Shown in pieces: positions 1 to 43,153 of a stretch of 43,153 bases of DNA. This DNA comes from a virus. Each line of letters begins with the position of its first letter. Within the stretch, counting starts at the first letter, position 1. The translations under genes and the position numbers were made by a program. The stretch lies in IMG/VR virus record IMGVR_UViG_3300045988_016831; one strand, written 5' to 3'. A model generated the notes under the pieces. The model had not been told where the DNA came from, made no database searches, and saw nothing but the letters and a program-made list of their open reading frames with translations.

Positions 1-64
1 AGCTCCACGGTCGGAGAGATGTGGGGCAGCTCCACGGTCAGAAAGATGTATGACAGCTCCACGG
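1..64. repeat. Terminal overlap identical to 43090..43153 (circular closure or terminal redundancy), lying inside the 27-bp tandem array
   Basis: Direct comparison: agctccacggtcggagagatgtggggcagctccacggtcagaaagatgtatgacagctccacgg occurs at both ends. Confidence 0.95.
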
Positions 65-1457: not shown

Positions 1458-1750
1458 GTGAAATGGTGAGATGTATCGACTGCAAGCACCTTATACGTGA
1501 TGGCTGGTGCGAACGGATAGCAGACAGTCCACATGAAGATCTGGATCGACGGTGTGCCTTTTTCCAGACAGTCACCAAGGCCGACCGTATCCGGTGCATG
1601 ACTGATGATGAGCTTGCGGCGCTTCTGTGCGGTATATCTTCGCATCTAGAGGAAGGGCGTTGCGAGCTGTGCATTGCGGCACCGTATTGCAGAGCAGGAC
1701 ACACCGGATTCCTGGACTGGCTGAAGGAGGAAGTCAATGCCAAAGACTAA
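1454..1750 (+). CDS. Cys-rich hypothetical protein (98 aa)
   Basis: ORF coupled by ATGA overlap. Multiple Cys pairs (CIDCKH..., CELCIAAPYC). Confidence 0.55.
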   Translation: MSEMVRCIDCKHLIRDGWCERIADSPHEDLDRRCAFFQTVTKADRIRCMTDDELAALLCGISSHLEEGRCELCIAAPYCRAGHTGFLDWLKEEVNAKD

Positions 1751-12402: not shown

Positions 12403-13632
12403 ATGCTTGAACCGGAGTACCTTAGGCGGGTATCAGAGGGCAGTGAGCAGATTGCGTCCTCCCTCCATGATTATATTATCCGGCAGATTATACGCAGAAT
12501 CATGCTCCGCATCGGGAGGGGCGAGGAATACCTGCTCACATCATCGGACGTGTGGCGGATTAAGACCTTGCAGGAATCGGGGTATCTTCTGGAAGATATT
12601 ACCGCGGAGATTGCCAAGTACACCAAGTGGCAGAAGAAGGAGATCAAGGCCGCGATGGAAGAAGCTGGGATTAAGGCCCTGGAAGCAGACAATAAGGTAT
12701 ACCAGGCCGCCGGACTATCCCCGGAACCGCTCACGCAATCCCCGGCGCTTATCCGGCTTATGGAGCGGAATATGCTGGTCACGGTCAACGAATGGACGAA
12801 TTACACTCGAACCACGGCACAGGTGGCACAGGCGCTGTATATTGCTGAATGCGACATTGCTTATAATAAGGTGATGACCGGAGCGGTGAGCTATACGCAG
12901 GCCGTCAGAGAAGCCGTAGACACGATAGTCAAGGACGGCGTGGTAGTCCGGTATCCCACCGGACACAAGGATACCATAGAGACAGCCACGGCCCGTGCGG
13001 TGCGAACCGGCATAGCGCAGGCCACCGGGGATATATGCCTTAAGCGCATGGAAGAAATGGATTGGGATATTGTGCTGGTGTCCGCTCACGTGGGAGCCCG
13101 GACAGGTGACGGCGGGCAGAACCCGGGAAATCATGCGTGGTGGCAAGGCCAGTACTTTTCCAGGACTGGGAAAGATAAGCGCTTCCCGGACTTCAAGGAA
13201 TCCACCGGGTACGGGACTATAGAGGGACTGTGTGGTGTGAATTGCCGCCACAGCTTCGGAAGCGGAACGGGAGAAGCCAAGGATAACCCATACAAGGAGC
13301 TCATGACCGCGGATAACTATAGAGTGGAACAGGCGGAGAAGCGGCAGAGAGAGCTTGAACGCCGTATCCGCAAGACCAAGCGGGCGGTTATGGGATTGCA
13401 GGAAGCTGTAGACGGGTGCAAGGACGAACAGGTTAAGTTCTCCATGCAGCAGGAGCTTGACCGCAAATCTTACCTCTTACAGAGCCAGAATAAGGCGTAT
13501 AACGAGTATTGCAAGGACAACAATCTCCAGCCACTGGCCGACAGGCTTAGAATAGCACAATGGGGCCGGGAGCAGGCCGCGAGAGCGCGGGGAGCTGCAC
13601 GGCGATATGAAAACGCAAAAGGAGCAGATTAA
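12403..13632 (+). CDS. Minor capsid / head morphogenesis protein (Phage_min_cap2 / SPP1 gp7-like)
   Basis: MLEPEYLRRVSEGSEQIASSLHDYIIRQI N-terminus and position after the portal. AGGAGGG before the ATG. Confidence 0.7.
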   Translation: MLEPEYLRRVSEGSEQIASSLHDYIIRQIIRRIMLRIGRGEEYLLTSSDVWRIKTLQESGYLLEDITAEIAKYTKWQKKEIKAAMEEAGIKALEADNKVYQAAGLSPEPLTQSPALIRLMERNMLVTVNEWTNYTRTTAQVAQALYIAECDIAYNKVMTGAVSYTQAVREAVDTIVKDGVVVRYPTGHKDTIETATARAVRTGIAQATGDICLKRMEEMDWDIVLVSAHVGARTGDGGQNPGNHAWWQGQYFSRTGKDKRFPDFKESTGYGTIEGLCGVNCRHSFGSGTGEAKDNPYKELMTADNYRVEQAEKRQRELERRIRKTKRAVMGLQEAVDGCKDEQVKFSMQQELDRKSYLLQSQNKAYNEYCKDNNLQPLADRLRIAQWGREQAARARGAARRYENAKGAD

Positions 13633-17540: not shown

Positions 17541-17792
17541 AATGTGGTGCCACAACATATATGCCATATGTAGTATGATGGGAGTGTGAAAAGTTATGAC
17601 TTTAAGCCGAAAGGCTTTGCCGATAGTTTCCCTCCTTTCAAGGATATGCGTCCTTAAAAGAAACCAGAAAACAATGTCCACTTACCATTGCTCTGGGAGG
17701 TTGAAAAGCGGATGCAATTTCCGACGCATATCATCGGTTCATCTCGTCGACCGAACACCTCATATCTAATAGGGCGGGCAATACCCGCCCAA

Positions 17793-17865
17793 GCCCCTGT
17801 AGCTCAACTGGTAGAGTAACTCCCCTGTAAGGAGCTGGTTCCGGGTTCGAATCCTGGCGGCGGCT
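17793..17865 (+). tRNA. tRNA-like gene, best read as tRNA-Thr(UGU) with non-canonical C33
   Basis: 73-nt hand-folded cloverleaf. Acceptor gcccctg/cggcggc has 6 of 7 pairs. D arm gctc-aactggta-gagt. Anticodon arm actcc-cctgtaa-ggagc. T arm ccggg-ttcgaat-cctgg. No encoded CCA. Confidence 0.55.
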
Positions 17866-17971
17866 GTTGCAATTCGATAATCTCAGGTGGTGGATTTTGT
17901 CGCAACCACGCGCCCTACGGGCTAAAAGAGATGCAGGGAAGGCGACGCCTGCGGGATTGTTGAATTGCTAT

Positions 17972-18041
17972 CGGAATATATCATCAATGGCAGATGTGGA
18001 GGGTCGCGCCCTCTGTCCTGGTTCGATTCCGGGTGTTCCGA
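17972..18041 (+). ncRNA. Degenerate tRNA-like element (T arm and acceptor intact, aberrant D/anticodon region)
   Basis: Acceptor cggaata/tgttccg, T arm cctgg-ttcgatt-ccggg and a GG-containing D loop. The central region folds as an 8-bp hairpin (gtggaggg/ccctctgt) and the variable region is too short. Confidence 0.35.
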
Positions 18042-31309: not shown

Positions 31310-32095
31310 ATGGCAATCATGGTATCTTCCGCACGCTCGGACGAGCGTGGCAAATACTCCGGCGGAAAGCCGGGAGACCAGAAACAGAATTCAAAGACCA
31401 ATGACACCCGGGGCGAGGTGAGTATGCAGGCAATGTATACCCACCGGAAAGGGTGGTATATCCTGCGCCCGAAAAAGGTATCACACGCTGACGCAATCGC
31501 AGAGCTGGGCATTAAGGCGGCAAACAATCCAAACATTGGCTACAGTCAGTCGGACAAGCTGGGCGTGGTTAAGCATGGCATTAGCACCAAGGTCAAGACC
31601 AATGCGGACTGCAGTTCCCTGGTGCGGCAGGCGGTAAAAGAAGCGACCGGGAAAGACCCGGGCAACTTTACCACAGCCAACGAGGCCAAGGTATTGGTCG
31701 CCACGGGACTGTTTACAAAGATTACTTATGTAAACCAGTCAAAGACCCCGGTCTATAATGGTGATATCCTTGTCACCAAGACCAAGGGGCATACCGTCAT
31801 CGTGGTATCCGGCAAACCCCGCCCACGTGCCACAGTCGGCAATCCGTACCCGGTGCCGACCAGAACCATTAAGCGGACAAGACCCTTAATGAAAGGCGAT
31901 GATGTCGGCTGGGTGCAGTATCACCTTGTCCGACTTGGATGCATGGCTGAGAAGAACGAGAACGGCGAGAGCAATATTGATAAGAAGTTTGGAGATATTT
32001 CTGAGGCTGGCGTGTATGAGGCACAGAAACGGTACGGCGTGCACCAGGACGGTATTGTGGACGCTGCTATGGTTGATATTTTGAGATGGAATTGA
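31310..32095 (+). CDS. Endolysin: Cys/His peptidase-like N-domain plus PG_binding_1 C-domain
   Basis: NADCSSLVRQ (Cys) and TKGHTVIVVSG (His). C-terminus MKGDDVGWVQYHLVRLG...KKFGDISEAGVYEAQKRYGVHQDGIVD is a peptidoglycan-binding repeat. Confidence 0.7.
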   Translation: MAIMVSSARSDERGKYSGGKPGDQKQNSKTNDTRGEVSMQAMYTHRKGWYILRPKKVSHADAIAELGIKAANNPNIGYSQSDKLGVVKHGISTKVKTNADCSSLVRQAVKEATGKDPGNFTTANEAKVLVATGLFTKITYVNQSKTPVYNGDILVTKTKGHTVIVVSGKPRPRATVGNPYPVPTRTIKRTRPLMKGDDVGWVQYHLVRLGCMAEKNENGESNIDKKFGDISEAGVYEAQKRYGVHQDGIVDAAMVDILRWN

Positions 32096-32098
32096 GAG

Positions 32099-32126
32099 AT
32101 CCCCGGAGCAATCCGGGGATTTTTTT
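32099..32126 (+). terminator. Rho-independent terminator ending the late operon
   Basis: atccccgga-gcaa-tccggggat followed by a T run. Confidence 0.85.
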
Positions 32127-32146
32127 AATTTATTTTAAAATAATGC

Positions 32147-32175
32147 TTGACTATTTGTACAAATAGTGATATACT
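32147..32175 (+). promoter_or_regulatory. Sigma-70/SigA-type promoter with an embedded palindrome
   Basis: TTGACT, 17 nt, TATACT. The spacer contains the perfect palindrome ATTTGTACAAAT. Confidence 0.65.
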
Positions 32176-32205
32176 TAAATCATCAAAGGAACGGAGGATA
32201 TAGAA

Positions 32206-32631
32206 ATGAAACATTATATCGTAGATGACAATGGAATGCAGTGGAGTTTTGAATCAAAAGAAAAAGCAGAAAAAAAGGCCGAAGAACTTGGAACCGAAGT
32301 AAGAGAAAAAACGGCGTGGAGATACTACGCTCCATACTACACTTGCGGAACCTCTGACTACAGGGAAATCACAGGAAAAAATCTGTGTGAAGCTATCGAG
32401 AAGAATTTTGATAAAATTATCAAAGATTTCAGCCTTGGAAGCGCTGCGGGATTGAAATTGAAATCCGCAAAGATTATCCCAAATGGGGACAGCGCAAAAC
32501 TGGAGATTGTATATCGCCCGCTTGGAAAATTTGGGGTTGATGACAAGCCGGAAAAATCTAAGACAGTAGAGATCGAATGGGTAGCTGAGGGAGATCTGGA
32601 AGAGGAATACAATTTCCCAATTGAGAAATAG
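32206..32631 (+). CDS. Orphan protein (141 aa) in an AT-rich moron cassette
   Basis: GGAGG before the ATG. No motif recognised. Visibly lower GC than the flanking late genes. Confidence 0.6.
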   Translation: MKHYIVDDNGMQWSFESKEKAEKKAEELGTEVREKTAWRYYAPYYTCGTSDYREITGKNLCEAIEKNFDKIIKDFSLGSAAGLKLKSAKIIPNGDSAKLEIVYRPLGKFGVDDKPEKSKTVEIEWVAEGDLEEEYNFPIEK

Positions 32632-32639
32632 GTGAATAA

Positions 32640-32822
32640 ATGATAAAAAAAATTACAGTTTGTAAATCTGGCGGGACGGCCAGCAAGAACGCCTTAATCT
32701 ACAGGTTGACCGTCCCGGCGGAGATGATAAAAGCCCTTGGTGTTACCCCCGAGGACAGGAGCATAGAGCTGGATATGGTGGACGATACGCTCACAATTAG
32801 AAAAGTCAAGGAGGAAAAGTAA
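32640..32822 (+). CDS. AbrB/SpoVT/MazE-type DNA-binding protein (60 aa)
   Basis: YRLTVPAEMIKALGVTPEDRSIELDMVDDTLTIRKV fits the swapped-hairpin AbrB-type motif. Confidence 0.55.
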   Translation: MIKKITVCKSGGTASKNALIYRLTVPAEMIKALGVTPEDRSIELDMVDDTLTIRKVKEEK

Positions 32823-32830
32823 GCAGAAAA

Positions 32831-32861
32831 CCCGTCCGGTTAATTCCGGGCGGGATTTTTT
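32831..32861 (+). terminator. Rho-independent terminator of the moron cassette
   Basis: cccgtccgg-ttaatt-ccgggcggg followed by aTTTTTT. Confidence 0.8.
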
Positions 32862-32886
32862 GTGTTAAAAATGGGGGTAAATAAAT

Positions 32887-32930
32887 ATATATCATCGTGG
32901 TTTTGTTTCATATAAACCATGATGATATAT
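32887..32930. repeat. 15-bp inverted repeat next to the integrase 3' end (attP candidate and/or int terminator)
   Basis: atatatcatcgtggt (32887..32901) versus accatgatgatatat (32916..32930), one mismatch, 14-nt AT-rich centre. Confidence 0.4.
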
Positions 32931-32947
32931 GTATTTTTGGTAAAAAA

Positions 32948-42404: not shown

Positions 42405-43153
42405 ATTTAAAAGTGGGATTATATTCAAAAGCCGGTGCGTGGTAGCTCCTGGAGAAAATGACAGTCACAGCGATTTATTGCGTGAGCTGAACGTTGAAGA
42501 CACTTATACCAACGCGTCAAGGGTATTTGTACGGGCCGAGCTTGTCTCGAAAAATGGTGAATGGTGGACAGACCCGGACGGCTGGGAGTACGTGGTAGAT
42601 CAGGACGTGACGCCGGACTGGTACGATACAGATCCGGGCAAATATGAAGAGGAGTTCCGACAGTCGGTAAAAGCATGGTGGAGTGAACACGTACTTGTAG
42701 ACAAAAAGATTGACGAGCTGTCCGGCGGATACTACAGGTTAAAGCGGTGCGAGGTCAAGAAACTGCTGAATGGTGTTAAAGTATATCTTAACAGCTCCAC
42801 GGTCGGAGAGATGTATGACAGCTCCACGGTCGGAGAGATGTGTGGCAGCTCCACGGTCGGAGAGATGTGGGGCAGCTCCACGGTCGGAGAGATGTGGGGC
42901 AGCTCCACGGTCGGAAAGATGTATGACAGCTCCACGGTCGGAAAGATGTGGGGCAGCTCCACGGTCGGAAAGATGTATGACAGCTCCACGGTCAGAAAGA
43001 TGTATGACAGCTCCACGGTCGGAGAGATGTGGGGCAGCTCCACGGTCAGAAAGATGTATGACAGCTCCACGGTCGGAAAGATGTATGGAAGCTCCACGGT
43101 CGGAGAGATGTGGGGCAGCTCCACGGTCAGAAAGATGTATGACAGCTCCACGG
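42397..43153 (+). CDS. Nonapeptide-repeat protein, N-terminal part (open at the window end; completed by 1..165)
   Basis: AAGGAGGG 8 nt before ATG 42397. There is no stop before the window end, so it is absent from the ORF track. A 132-aa unique domain is followed by SSTV[GR][EK]M[YWC][DG] units. Confidence 0.75.
   Translation, partial: MCRFKSGIIFKSRCVVAPGENDSHSDLLRELNVEDTYTNASRVFVRAELVSKNGEWWTDPDGWEYVVDQDVTPDWYDTDPGKYEEEFRQSVKAWWSEHVLVDKKIDELSGGYYRLKRCEVKKLLNGVKVYLNSSTVGEMYDSSTVGEMCGSSTVGEMWGSSTVGEMWGSSTVGKMYDSSTVGKMWGSSTVGKMYDSSTVRKMYDSSTVGEMWGSSTVRKMYDSSTVGKMYGSSTVGEMWGSSTVRKMYDSST
42793..43153 (+). repeat. 27-bp tandem repeat array (13 full units plus a partial one; the last 2.4 units duplicate nt 1..64)
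   Basis: Units start at 42793 and every 27 nt after. 21 of 27 columns are invariant; variation is limited to columns 13, 16, 23, 24, 26 and 27. Confidence 0.95.

What the first reader, a model, noticed from the sequence alone, without database searches (positions are those of the whole stretch)
32128..32861. Self-contained AT-rich moron: palindrome-bearing consensus promoter, orphan 141-aa protein plus AbrB-type protein, terminators on both sides
The cassette lies between the late-operon terminator (32099..32126) and its own terminator (32831..32861). It starts with a near-consensus promoter (TTGACT, 17 nt, TATACT) whose spacer holds the perfect palindrome ATTTGTACAAAT. An unrecognisable 141-aa protein follows, and 8 nt later a 60-aa AbrB/MazE-type DNA binder. 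The lysis-to-integrase position is the classic location for prophage-expressed accessory genes. The architecture (autoregulated promoter, effector first, small AbrB-fold partner second) resembles a reversed-order toxin-antitoxin or abortive-infection/defence pair with a novel effector.
Basis: partly seen in the sequence, partly recalled or inferred. Interest (0 to 1): 0.65.

Follow-up and report, generated by a model that had tools for sequence, protein, structure and literature searches.

The report
Anti-CRISPR-type cassette with AbrB-fold regulator
The cassette is real, but it is probably not a toxin-antitoxin pair: it is one version of a swappable phage gene cassette that carries a known anti-CRISPR gene in sister phages, so the 141-aa protein is a candidate new anti-defence protein and the small AbrB-like protein its probable self-repressor.

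Summary
The palindrome is in fact 18 bp (32150..32167). It runs from the -35 hexamer to the TG of an extended -10.

I compared 29 distinct related cassettes from gut-phage contigs. The promoter, palindrome, 5'UTR, 60-aa AbrB-like gene and terminator are constant. The genes around the AbrB-like gene are swapped. The first slot holds the 141-aa gene, an AcrIC5 anti-CRISPR homolog (Pfam 79 bits; PDB 7YHR E 1.6e-8), four other unrelated genes, or nothing.

The window's promoter segment is 100% identical to that of AcrIC5 carriers. One AcrIC5 carrier (L047) shares a 97% identical integrase.

The palindrome has three variants, each keeping dyad symmetry. Each variant occurs only with its own AbrB allele class, while neighbouring regulators stay 95-98% identical.

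The AbrB-like protein has no antitoxin tail and no fixed partner. The 141-aa family (about 24 clusters) has no conserved catalytic motif, no family hit and no PDB fold match.

Best reading: an acr-aca-type anti-defence operon with a non-HTH (AbrB-fold) autorepressor and a new candidate anti-defence cargo. No function was tested. The toxin-antitoxin reading is poorly supported.

The parts
32094..32131 (+). Intrinsic terminator that closes the late (lysis) operon after the endolysin gene. It forms the 5' boundary of the cassette.
   Evidence: Terminator scan: 14-bp stem, 4-nt loop, T-run. The same element precedes the cassette in L001, L002, L016 and L018.
32147..32175 (+). Sigma-70-type promoter: -35 TTGACT (32147..32152), 17-nt spacer, TG extended -10 (32167..32168), -10 TATACT (32170..32175).
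   Evidence: 10 of 12 matches, TG present. Conserved in 29 distinct cassettes in front of different first genes. The segment 32096..32205 is 100% identical over 104-105 nt to seven AcrIC5-carrying loci.
32150..32167 (.). 18-bp perfect palindrome ACTATTTGTACAAATAGT, the putative operator of the AbrB-like protein. It overlaps the end of the -35, the whole spacer and the T of the TG motif.
   Evidence: Only perfect palindrome of 16 bp or more in the window. Unique in the window at up to 3 mismatches. Three natural variants (TTTGTACAAA, TTCGTACGAA, TTGGTACCAA) keep dyad symmetry, and each occurs only with its own AbrB allele class.
32176..32205 (+). Conserved 5'UTR with RBS GGAGG (32193..32197). 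The start codon of whichever gene occupies the first slot lies at the same offset (position 60 from the start of the -35) in nearly all cassettes.
   Evidence: No significant RNA structure (z = 0.41).
32206..32631 (+). 141-aa cargo protein (pI 5.1): a candidate new anti-defence or anti-CRISPR protein. It is the only cargo of this cassette.
   Evidence: No Pfam, PHROG, PADLOC or NCBIfam hit. A small family of about 24 clusters at 50% identity. Only M1 and G82 are invariant. AF2 pLDDT 83, pTM 0.70. No PDB fold match, TM 0.35 or less. dN/dS 0.06-0.10. It occupies the slot that holds AcrIC5 in sister cassettes. No other cargo homolog exists elsewhere in the window.
32640..32822 (+). 60-aa AbrB/MazE/SpoVT-like (swapped-hairpin) DNA-binding protein. 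It is the constant gene of the cassette and its putative autorepressor (Aca-like). The RBS AGGTGA at 32630..32635 overlaps the stop codon of the 141-aa gene.
   Evidence: PF04014 18.3 bits, below the 24.7 cut-off. phrog_2329 E 7.8e-12. hhalign E 7e-5 against MazE and 4e-4 against AbrB-N. Predicted beta-beta-alpha-beta-beta topology. The Foldseek list is made up mostly of MazE, AbrB, C68, C56, SpoVT and VapB, but with E of 0.27 or worse. Present wherever the contig reaches that far. Three allele classes match the three operator variants.
32831..32861 (+). Intrinsic terminator that closes the cassette. It shields the convergent integrase gene from read-through.
   Evidence: 9-bp stem, 8 GC pairs, T-run. 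The same terminator closes the relatives' cassettes whatever their content.

Best explanation
The region is one allele of a modular accessory cassette built like an anti-CRISPR (acr-aca) operon, carried by a lineage of temperate gut Clostridia phages.

Proposed mechanism. A near-consensus host-type promoter fires as soon as the phage DNA enters a cell, with no need for phage factors. It transcribes the cargo (here the 141-aa protein) and then the 60-aa AbrB-fold protein. That protein dimerises, binds the 18-bp palindrome across the -35/-10 spacer, and shuts its own operon down to a low steady level. Terminators on both sides insulate the unit. The cargo is most probably a stoichiometric inhibitor of a host defence system. 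Type I-C CRISPR-Cas is the leading candidate, because the same slot holds AcrIC5 in nearly identical phages.

Shown here:
- the anatomy of the cassette;
- constancy of the promoter, operator, AbrB-like gene and terminator against swapped cargo;
- allelic replacement of the 141-aa gene by AcrIC5;
- matching of operator variants to AbrB allele classes.

Inferred, not tested:
- DNA binding and repression by the 60-aa protein (my estimate about 0.8);
- an anti-defence role for the 141-aa protein (about 0.5-0.55);
- type I-C CRISPR-Cas as its target (about 0.3).
For: 1. Modularity. Twenty-nine distinct cassettes share the promoter, operator and 5'UTR. The AbrB-like gene and the terminator are also present wherever the contig extends that far. 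The first slot holds the 141-aa gene (11 cassettes), an AcrIC5 homolog (11-12), a 124-aa gene followed by a 119- or 103-aa gene, a 109-aa gene, a 79-aa gene, or nothing (L044). The slot after the AbrB-like gene is also variable or empty.

2. The 67-aa alternative cargo is AcrIC5. It scores 79 bits on PF22147 against a cut-off of 27 (E 2.8e-22) and matches PDB 7YHR 'Anti-CRISPR protein Type I-C5' at E 1.6e-8. AcrIC5 is an experimentally validated type I-C inhibitor with orthologues in Firmicutes (PMC7913775).

3. Allelism. Window 32096..32205 is 100% identical to seven AcrIC5-carrying loci. L047 carries AcrIC5, a Zn-ribbon/AP2 gene and the AbrB-like gene, has the same terminator, and has an integrase 97.4% identical to the window's.

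4. Operator. All three variants keep dyad symmetry. L008 and L019 are identical over the promoter and 5'UTR stretch compared (about 70 nt) except for one symmetric T>C / A>G pair. Between these two loci only the AbrB-like protein has diverged (76.7% identity). The CI-like repressor, the 196-aa HTH protein, the 124-aa cargo and the 96-aa protein are 95-99% identical. No cassette mixes an operator variant with the wrong AbrB class among 25 informative cassettes.

5. The variable residues of the AbrB-like protein (6-8, 10, 18-20) flank the invariant K9 and R22. R22 aligns with R15 of AbrB.

6. Independent hint. A homolog of the 141-aa protein with 34% identity (L023) lies beside a phage-borne Cas8c (Csd1) N-terminal fragment (E 7.5e-12) and 2 kb from an AcrIC5-like gene (25 bits against a cut-off of 27). 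Another homolog (L056) lies in an array of small genes that includes DarA_C.

7. Most cargo proteins are small and acidic (pI 4.3-5.6), as many Acr proteins are.

8. The design matches published acr-aca operons: a strong promoter, an inverted repeat in the promoter, and a regulator gene at the operon's 3' end (PMC6765145, PMC9410906, PMC13551039).
Against: - No function was tested. The case for the 141-aa protein is guilt by association only.
- The window's own cassette contains no known Acr.
- The slot also holds DNA-binding-looking cargo (Zn-ribbon/AP2), so not all cargo need be anti-defence.
- The locus between lysis genes and integrase is also the classic position for prophage-expressed genes that benefit the host.
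- The AbrB assignment is below Pfam's threshold. The monomer model is weak (pLDDT 64) and the Foldseek E-values are not significant.
- Only three operator classes exist, so the covariation rests on two evolutionary events.
- A homolog with 55% identity (L052) is followed by a weak HicB-like gene, which keeps a toxin-antitoxin flavour alive.
- The host and its CRISPR type are unknown. The only genome-collection hit is a Clostridiales MAG contig of phage size.
Confidence: 0.55

Rival explanations
1. One reading: a reversed-order type II toxin-antitoxin or abortive-infection pair. The 141-aa protein would be a new toxin or effector, and the AbrB-fold protein its antitoxin and autorepressor.
For: - The 60-aa protein has an AbrB/MazE-like fold.
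- The promoter carries a palindrome, as toxin-antitoxin promoters do.
- The two genes are tightly spaced, 8 nt apart.
- A homolog of the 141-aa protein with 55% identity is followed by a weak HicB-like gene (L052).
- Distant relatives of the 60-aa protein in C. difficile phages are annotated 'putative PemI'.
Against: - The AbrB-like gene keeps its promoter and operator while the upstream gene is swapped for at least five unrelated genes, including an anti-CRISPR, or is absent.
- The 60-aa protein has no C-terminal toxin-binding tail. It aligns to MazE residues 15-50 and then ends.
- The 141-aa family has no toxin, defence or enzyme family hit and no conserved catalytic residues.
- Other family members (L023, L050, L056) have no AbrB-like neighbour.
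- The window's AbrB allele and promoter are closer to those of AcrIC5 cassettes (93-95% and 100%) than to those of other 141-aa cassettes (84-91% and 91-95%). There is no pairwise co-adaptation.
Confidence: 0.07
2. A lysogenic-conversion moron. The cargo, including the 141-aa protein, would be expressed from the prophage for the benefit of the lysogen (superinfection exclusion, defence or another host-fitness trait). The AbrB-like protein would only hold expression at a steady level. AcrIC5 in sister cassettes would serve mainly to protect the prophage from self-targeting.
For: - The position between lysis genes and integrase, the cassette's own host-type promoter and the terminators on both sides are hallmarks of morons.
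- Negative autoregulation suits steady prophage expression.
- The cargo is heterogeneous and includes DNA-binding-type proteins.
- GC content is lower than in the flanks.
Against: - No cargo protein hits any PADLOC defence model. Only the window's two proteins were scanned there.
- The only cargo of known function is a counter-defence protein.
- The 141-aa protein is predicted to be soluble and acidic. The ORF translation shows no signal peptide or membrane segment, unlike many exclusion proteins.
- The 141-aa family also occurs in long arrays of small early-type genes without lysogeny context (L050, L056).
Confidence: 0.2
3. The 141-aa protein serves the phage's own life cycle, for example as a recombination directionality factor or cofactor for the adjacent serine integrase, or as a lysis or lysogeny modulator. 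It would not act in phage-host conflict.
For: - The gene is adjacent to the integrase and to a 25-nt imperfect inverted repeat that looks like attP.
- A fold match in the viral library (TMq 0.53, E 7e-5) is to a 316-aa protein annotated as carrying an HTH domain.
Against: - Sister phages with the same serine integrase (L047 at 97%, L012 at 86%) lack the 141-aa gene entirely. It therefore cannot be an essential partner of the integrase.
- The same gene occurs in phages with a tyrosine integrase or with none next to it (L030, L034 and L001-L003).
Confidence: 0.05

Closest known systems
acr-aca operons (anti-CRISPR genes with an Aca autorepressor such as Aca1, Aca2 or Aca10, and the ribbon-helix-helix Aca14)
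   Same: A strong promoter with an inverted repeat inside it. One or more small, fast-swapping cargo genes come first, and a small conserved DNA-binding gene comes last on the same strand. One regulator family is paired with many unrelated cargo genes. AcrIC5 is present in sister cassettes (PMC6765145, PMC9410906, PMC13551039).
   Different: The regulator is neither HTH (Aca1-12) nor RHH (Aca14). It has an AbrB/MazE-type swapped-hairpin fold. I found no paper in the searched library that describes such an Aca, and HTH-restricted tools such as AcaFinder would miss it. The window's own cargo is not a known Acr. Cargo also sits downstream of the regulator in many relatives.
MazE / AbrB / SpoVT superfamily (Pfam PF04014); type II antitoxins MazE, PemI and AbrB-type VapB
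   Same: Predicted beta-beta-alpha-beta-beta swapped-hairpin topology. Sequence similarity over the core (33% to MazE residues 15-50, 29% to AbrB-N). A palindromic operator in its own promoter.
   Different: Only 60 aa, with no C-terminal toxin-binding or oligomerisation domain. A 12-residue Gly-rich loop between beta1 and beta2. No cognate toxin. The Pfam score is below the gathering threshold.
AcrIC5 loci, e.g. the acrIC5-racrIC1 operon of a Bifidobacterium pseudocatenulatum prophage (PMC10651486) and the aca1-linked acrIC5 of Pseudomonas (PMC7913775)
   Same: Sister cassettes carry a true AcrIC5 homolog as the first gene behind the same promoter. Some relatives also have, just upstream, a promoter-to-terminator small-RNA unit containing a sequence that resembles a type I-C repeat.
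   Different: The window has neither AcrIC5 nor that RNA unit. The resemblance of the repeat-like unit to type I-C repeats is from memory, and the unit has no Rfam CRISPR-DR match.

Membership tests
acr-aca operon (functional class) | Contains a gene homologous to a validated anti-CRISPR | tested here: not met
   Not met for the window: the 141-aa protein hits no Acr family, and no AcrIC5 homolog exists anywhere in the window. Met in allelic cassettes with the same promoter and regulator (AcrIC5: 79 bits on Pfam, PDB 7YHR at E 1.6e-8).
acr-aca operon (functional class) | A small DNA-binding regulator gene on the same strand in the same operon, conserved while the cargo varies | tested here: met
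   The 60-aa AbrB-like gene is present wherever the contig extends that far, and the first slot has at least six different states.
acr-aca operon (functional class) | An inverted-repeat operator within the operon promoter | tested here: met
   An 18-bp perfect palindrome spans the -35/-10 spacer. Its symmetric variants track the regulator allele.
acr-aca operon (functional class) | The regulator represses the operon promoter; the cargo inhibits CRISPR-Cas | not testable with these tools
   Needs EMSA, reporter and phage-rescue assays.
Known Aca families Aca1-Aca14 | An HTH domain (Aca1-12) or RHH domain (Aca14) homologous to a named family | tested here: not met
   Pfam, NCBIfam and PHROGs give only MazE_antitoxin (below threshold) and phrog_2329. 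There is no HTH or RHH hit.
AbrB/MazE/SpoVT (Pfam PF04014) | A score at or above the Pfam gathering threshold | tested here: not met
   18.3 bits against 24.7. Several homologs with 70-77% identity carry a precomputed PF04014 hit.
AbrB/MazE/SpoVT (Pfam PF04014) | Swapped-hairpin beta-beta-alpha-beta-beta core, with profile similarity to solved members | tested here: inconclusive
   The topology is predicted, but the monomer model has pLDDT 64. Foldseek hits are mostly superfamily members but with E of 0.27 or worse.
Type II toxin-antitoxin system (MazEF-like or reversed order) | A fixed, co-inherited toxin partner | tested here: not met
   The AbrB-like gene occurs with 141-aa, AcrIC5, 124+119, 124+103, 109 or 79-aa genes upstream, or with none. 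Downstream it has a 96-, 83- or 80-aa gene, or none.
Type II toxin-antitoxin system (MazEF-like or reversed order) | The antitoxin carries a toxin-neutralising extension beyond the DNA-binding domain | tested here: not met
   The protein ends at residue 60. The alignment to MazE stops at MazE residue 50 of 82.
Type II toxin-antitoxin system (MazEF-like or reversed order) | The toxin belongs to a known toxin fold or family, or shows conserved catalytic residues | tested here: not met
   No Pfam, NCBIfam, PADLOC or PHROG hit. Only M1 and G82 are invariant. No PDB fold match.
Type II toxin-antitoxin system (MazEF-like or reversed order) | The toxin arrests growth and the antitoxin relieves it | not testable with these tools
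   Needs expression experiments.
Known anti-phage defence systems (PADLOC-DB v2) | A hit to any defence-system protein model | tested here: not met
   Zero families for both proteins at E up to 10.

The most novel reading that the evidence does not exclude
The 60-aa protein founds a new AbrB-fold class of anti-CRISPR-associated repressor, which HTH-based search tools cannot see. It comes with three naturally orthogonal operator/regulator pairs. Used as bait, it would mark the 141-aa protein as a new anti-CRISPR (possibly type I-C) or anti-defence family. It would also mark at least six further small proteins (124, 119, 103, 109, 79 and 96 aa) in gut Clostridia phages as candidates.
Probability: 0.45. 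Interest if true: 0.8.

Novelty: new variant of a known kind. Interest (0 to 1): 0.64.

Why it matters
Anti-CRISPR and other anti-defence genes are mostly found by association with their conserved regulators. Nearly all known regulators are helix-turn-helix proteins. The first ribbon-helix-helix one was reported only in September 2026 (PMC13551039).

An AbrB-fold regulator tied to AcrIC5 would add a third fold class. It would also open a set of uncharacterised candidate inhibitors from phages of human-gut Clostridia, where few anti-defence proteins are known.

The three operator/regulator variants differ by one symmetric base pair and a few residues. They offer a compact natural system for studying, or engineering, DNA-recognition specificity in the swapped-hairpin fold.

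A practical point follows for annotation. A small AbrB/MazE-like gene in a phage should not be annotated as an antitoxin by default.

Tried and rejected
- Known-family searches of the 141-aa protein (Pfam, PHROGs, PADLOC, NCBIfam) found nothing.
- tblastn of the 141-aa protein against 50,697 phage records found no match.
- An IMG/VR scan with the 141-aa protein found no relative.
- A profile search of PDB sequences gave only chance-level hits.
- Foldseek against the PDB gave a best TM of 0.35, to GFP-like barrels, which is not meaningful.
- Foldseek against BFVD gave one moderate hit to a 316-aa 'HTH domain protein'. I could not retrieve it to check.
- I looked for further copies of the operator in the window, to see whether the AbrB-like protein or the phage repressor controls other promoters. 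There are none at up to 3 mismatches. This also argues against the CI-like repressor as the protein that binds the palindrome.
- I looked for a structured 5'UTR of the kind bound by Aca2. There is none (z = 0.41).
- I tested whether the small-RNA-like unit upstream of relatives' cassettes is a CRISPR repeat mimic. It has no Rfam CRISPR-DR hit and the unit is absent from the window. It remains an open lead.
- I considered the 96-aa gene downstream of the AbrB-like gene in relatives as the 'real' toxin partner. I rejected this as unlikely: it is very acidic (pI 4.4), has no family or PDB hit, and is absent from the window and several relatives.
- Distant AbrB-like homologs in isolated phages (C. 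scindens phage phiCs5676-1, Blautia phage Montmirail) sit among early or replication genes, not in such a cassette. The protein family is therefore broader than the Aca-like role.
Full report
OBSERVATION

The elements described are all present.
- A terminator at 32094..32125 closes the endolysin operon.
- The promoter is TTGACT, 17 nt, TATACT (32147..32175), with a TG extended -10.
- An RBS (GGAGG, 32193..32197) precedes a 141-aa ORF (32206..32631).
- Eight nucleotides later comes a 60-aa ORF (32640..32822).
- A GC-rich terminator follows at 32831..32854.

Upstream lies an endolysin (ELLD + PG_binding_1). Downstream, on the opposite strand, lies a large serine integrase.

The palindrome is longer than reported. 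It is 18 bp, ACTATTTGTACAAATAGT (32150..32167), running from the last three bases of the -35 to the T of the TG motif. It is the only perfect palindrome of 16 bp or more in the window, where 0.65 are expected.

A promoter-like match on its own is not above chance (8 found against 6.1 expected). The weight comes from conservation, described below.

The cassette has 40.9% GC against 49.1% for the window. Both ORFs are under strong purifying selection (dN/dS 0.04-0.13), so both are real genes.

THE TWO PROTEINS

The 141-aa protein has no hit in Pfam, PHROGs, PADLOC or NCBIfam. Only three close clusters turned up in the word-indexed search of 5.8 billion proteins. An exhaustive HMMER pass over 1.84 billion representatives found 24 relatives, all about 105-156 aa.

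Their alignment has only M1 and G82 invariant, with W38, G57, L60 and A63 nearly so. There is no catalytic-looking motif.

AlphaFold2 with that alignment gives a fairly confident alpha+beta model with long hairpins (pLDDT 83.4, pTM 0.70). The model has no meaningful match in the PDB (best TM 0.35). It has one moderate match in the viral library, to a 316-aa protein annotated as HTH-containing.

The 60-aa protein scores below threshold on MazE_antitoxin/PF04014 (18.3 bits against 24.7) and clearly on phrog_2329. Profile alignment to E. coli MazE gives E 7e-5 over MazE residues 15-50.

The monomer model shows the beta-beta-alpha-beta-beta swapped-hairpin order but is weak (pLDDT 64). Its Foldseek list is made up mostly of MazE, AbrB, C68, C56, SpoVT and VapB, at non-significant E-values.

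I accept 'AbrB-type' as probable, not proven. The protein ends where MazE's toxin-binding tail begins.

COMPARATIVE ANATOMY: THE KEY RESULT

I collected relatives in three ways:
- contigs that encode homologs of the two proteins;
- scans of IMG/VR, metagenome and GTDB contigs for the promoter pattern;
- local re-analysis of all of them.

This gave 29 distinct cassettes. In all of them the promoter, palindrome and 5'UTR are conserved. Where the contig extends far enough, the AbrB-like gene and the closing terminator are there too. The rest varies.

The first slot starts at the same offset from the -35 in nearly all cassettes. It holds one of:
- the 141-aa gene (11 cassettes, including the window);
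- a 67-aa gene (11-12 cassettes), usually followed by a Zn-ribbon or Zn-ribbon/AP2 protein;
- a 124-aa gene followed by a 119- or 103-aa gene;
- a 109-aa gene;
- a 79-aa gene;
- nothing at all (L044, where the promoter leads straight into the AbrB-like gene).

The slot after the AbrB-like gene holds a very acidic 96-aa protein (most cassettes), an 83-aa gene, an 80-aa gene, a separate small operon, or nothing (the window, L047, L027, L031, L034).

The 67-aa occupant of the first slot is an AcrIC5 anti-CRISPR. It scores 79 bits on Pfam PF22147 against a cut-off of 27 (E 2.8e-22). It matches the solved AcrIC5 structure 7YHR over its full length (E 1.6e-8). AcrIC5 is an experimentally validated inhibitor of type I-C CRISPR-Cas with orthologues in Firmicutes and Actinobacteria (PMC7913775). 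It was independently shown to be active in a gut Bifidobacterium prophage locus (PMC10651486).

The window's segment 32096..32205 is 100% identical to seven AcrIC5-carrying loci. L047, a phage-sized contig binned with a Clostridiales MAG, has the same terminator and a 97.4% identical integrase. It carries AcrIC5 plus a Zn-ribbon/AP2 gene where the window has the 141-aa gene.

The window has no AcrIC5 or other cargo homolog elsewhere. The 141-aa gene is therefore an allelic alternative to an anti-CRISPR in an otherwise near-identical phage.

THE OPERATOR AND ITS REGULATOR

The palindrome has three variants: TTTGTACAAA, TTCGTACGAA and TTGGTACCAA. Each differs from the others by a symmetric pair of substitutions.

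The AbrB-like proteins fall into three discrete classes:
- KITVCKS..NALIY
- KIIINKP..NAVMY
- KLIVTKQ..NAVTY

Every one of the 25 informative cassettes pairs an operator variant with the same protein class.

L008 and L019 amount to a natural swap experiment. Their promoter and 5'UTR are identical except for the symmetric T>C / A>G pair. Their 124-aa cargo (99%), 96-aa protein (98%), CI-like repressor (98%) and second HTH protein (95%) are nearly identical. Only the AbrB-like protein has diverged (77%).

The operator occurs nowhere else in the window, so it is not a site for the phage's main repressor. The variable residues flank the invariant K9 and R22 on the first hairpin. From my knowledge of AbrB, that hairpin is the part that contacts DNA.

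I infer that a dimer of the 60-aa protein binds the palindrome and blocks RNA polymerase. This is an inference from covariation. It is not a measurement, and it rests on two substitution events.

WHY IT IS NOT A TOXIN-ANTITOXIN PAIR

- The AbrB-like gene has no fixed partner.
- It lacks an antitoxin tail.
- One of its 'partners' is an anti-CRISPR.
- The 141-aa family shows no toxin features.
- Distant family members sit without any AbrB-like neighbour (L023, L050, L056).
- The window's AbrB allele and promoter are closer to those of AcrIC5 cassettes than to those of other 141-aa cassettes. This is the opposite of what co-adapted pairs would show.

One observation keeps the idea from being dismissed outright. 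A homolog with 55% identity at a prophage end (L052) is followed by a weak HicB-like gene.

WHAT THE 141-AA PROTEIN MAY DO

The direct evidence is its position in an Acr slot. There are two independent hints.
- A homolog with 34% identity (L023) lies next to a phage-borne N-terminal fragment of Cas8c (Csd1, E 7.5e-12) and 2 kb from an AcrIC5-like gene just under threshold, amid small HTH genes.
- Another homolog (L056) lies in an array of small genes that includes DarA_C.

Phage-borne cas fragments as counter-defence genes have been noted near Aca-regulated operons (PMC13551039).

Most cargo proteins of these cassettes are small and acidic.

I therefore favour a stoichiometric inhibitor of a host defence system, with type I-C CRISPR-Cas the leading candidate. 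I put the anti-defence role at only about 0.5-0.55. A gene expressed from the prophage for the lysogen's benefit remains a serious rival.

COMPARISON WITH WHAT IS KNOWN

The architecture works like an acr-aca operon:
- a strong promoter;
- an inverted repeat inside it;
- swappable cargo;
- a conserved small autorepressor at the 3' end (PMC6765145, PMC9410906).

It is not a member of any named Aca family. Aca1-12 are HTH proteins (AcaFinder). Aca14, the first RHH Aca, was published in September 2026. That paper does not mention AbrB, SpoVT or MazE, and full-text searches for AbrB together with anti-CRISPR found nothing relevant. HTH-restricted pipelines would miss this locus.

I classify it as a new variant of a known kind.

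LIMITS

- No experiment was done.
- The host is unknown beyond 'Clostridiales' and weak similarity to Roseburia, Blautia and C. scindens phages.
- The AbrB fold assignment is sub-threshold.
- The covariation rests on three classes.
- The wider 60-aa family (phrog_2329) also occurs among early or replication genes in isolated phages. The Aca-like role is therefore defined by context, not by the family.

Noticed in passing
window 32879..32938: An imperfect inverted repeat between the cassette terminator and the stop codon of the serine integrase. The arms are 25 nt, 84% complementary, with 10 nt between them: AAATAAATATATATCATCGTGGTTT / AAACCATGATGATATATGTATTTTT. It is conserved with small changes in L047. 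It is a candidate attP core for the large serine recombinase.
   Followed up: partly
window 17643..18041: A cluster of RNA genes inside the structural-gene region: RAGATH-21 RNA (17643..17732, 77 bits), tRNA-Thr(TGT) (17792..17866), skipping-rope RNA (17877..17960, 51 bits) and tRNA-Ala(CGC) (17972..18041).
   Followed up: no
window 1..50 and 43104..43153: The first 50 bases of the window recur elsewhere in it, and so do the last 50. This is consistent with a terminal assembly overlap, so the window is probably a complete, circularly closed phage genome of about 43.1 kb rather than an excerpt of a chromosome. I did not locate the second copies.
   Followed up: partly
L008 3990..4150; also L012-L015, L019, L033, L038, L046 (absent from the window): In relatives, between the endolysin and the cassette, there is a self-contained unit: a TTGACT-17-TATAAT promoter, about 130 nt, and a strong terminator (fold z = -4.1). 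It contains GTCGCCATTACCC(G/T)GCTAAGGGCGTTGAGTTGAAAT. From memory this resembles a type I-C CRISPR repeat (GTCGC...ATTGAAAT), so it may be an RNA anti-CRISPR (Racr-like solitary repeat). It has no Rfam CRISPR-DR match.
   Followed up: partly
L023 4219..4929 and 1517..1684: Next to a homolog of the 141-aa protein with 34% identity, a phage contig encodes a 236-aa protein matching only the N-terminal third of Cas8c/Csd1 (E 7.5e-12). It also encodes a 55-aa AcrIC5-like protein (25 bits against a cut-off of 27), among several small HTH_26 genes. The Cas8c fragment may be a cas-derived counter-defence gene.
   Followed up: partly
L008 5185..5475 and most relatives (absent from the window): A highly conserved, very acidic 96-aa protein (pI 4.4) starts 1-2 nt after the stop codon of the AbrB-like gene in most cassettes. 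It has no Pfam, PHROG or PDB hit. It is another candidate anti-defence protein. It has been lost from, or was never gained by, the window's cassette.
   Followed up: partly
L024 about 12530..13280: In some relatives a second small unit follows the AbrB-like gene: two promoters that each carry the repeated motif ATAAGGCACAAAA, driving a 64-aa and a 51-aa gene. The first protein looked RHH-like to me by eye, but Pfam gave no such hit. The unit is preceded by a copy of the same terminator that follows the endolysin in the window, which points to mosaic recombination.
   Followed up: no
window 32130..32143 and 32667..32722: A 14-bp AT-only palindrome, TTATTTTAAAATAA, lies just upstream of the -35 and may be UP-element-like. 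A 16-nt inverted repeat (81% complementary, 24 nt apart) lies inside the AbrB-like coding sequence. The significance of both is unknown.
   Followed up: no
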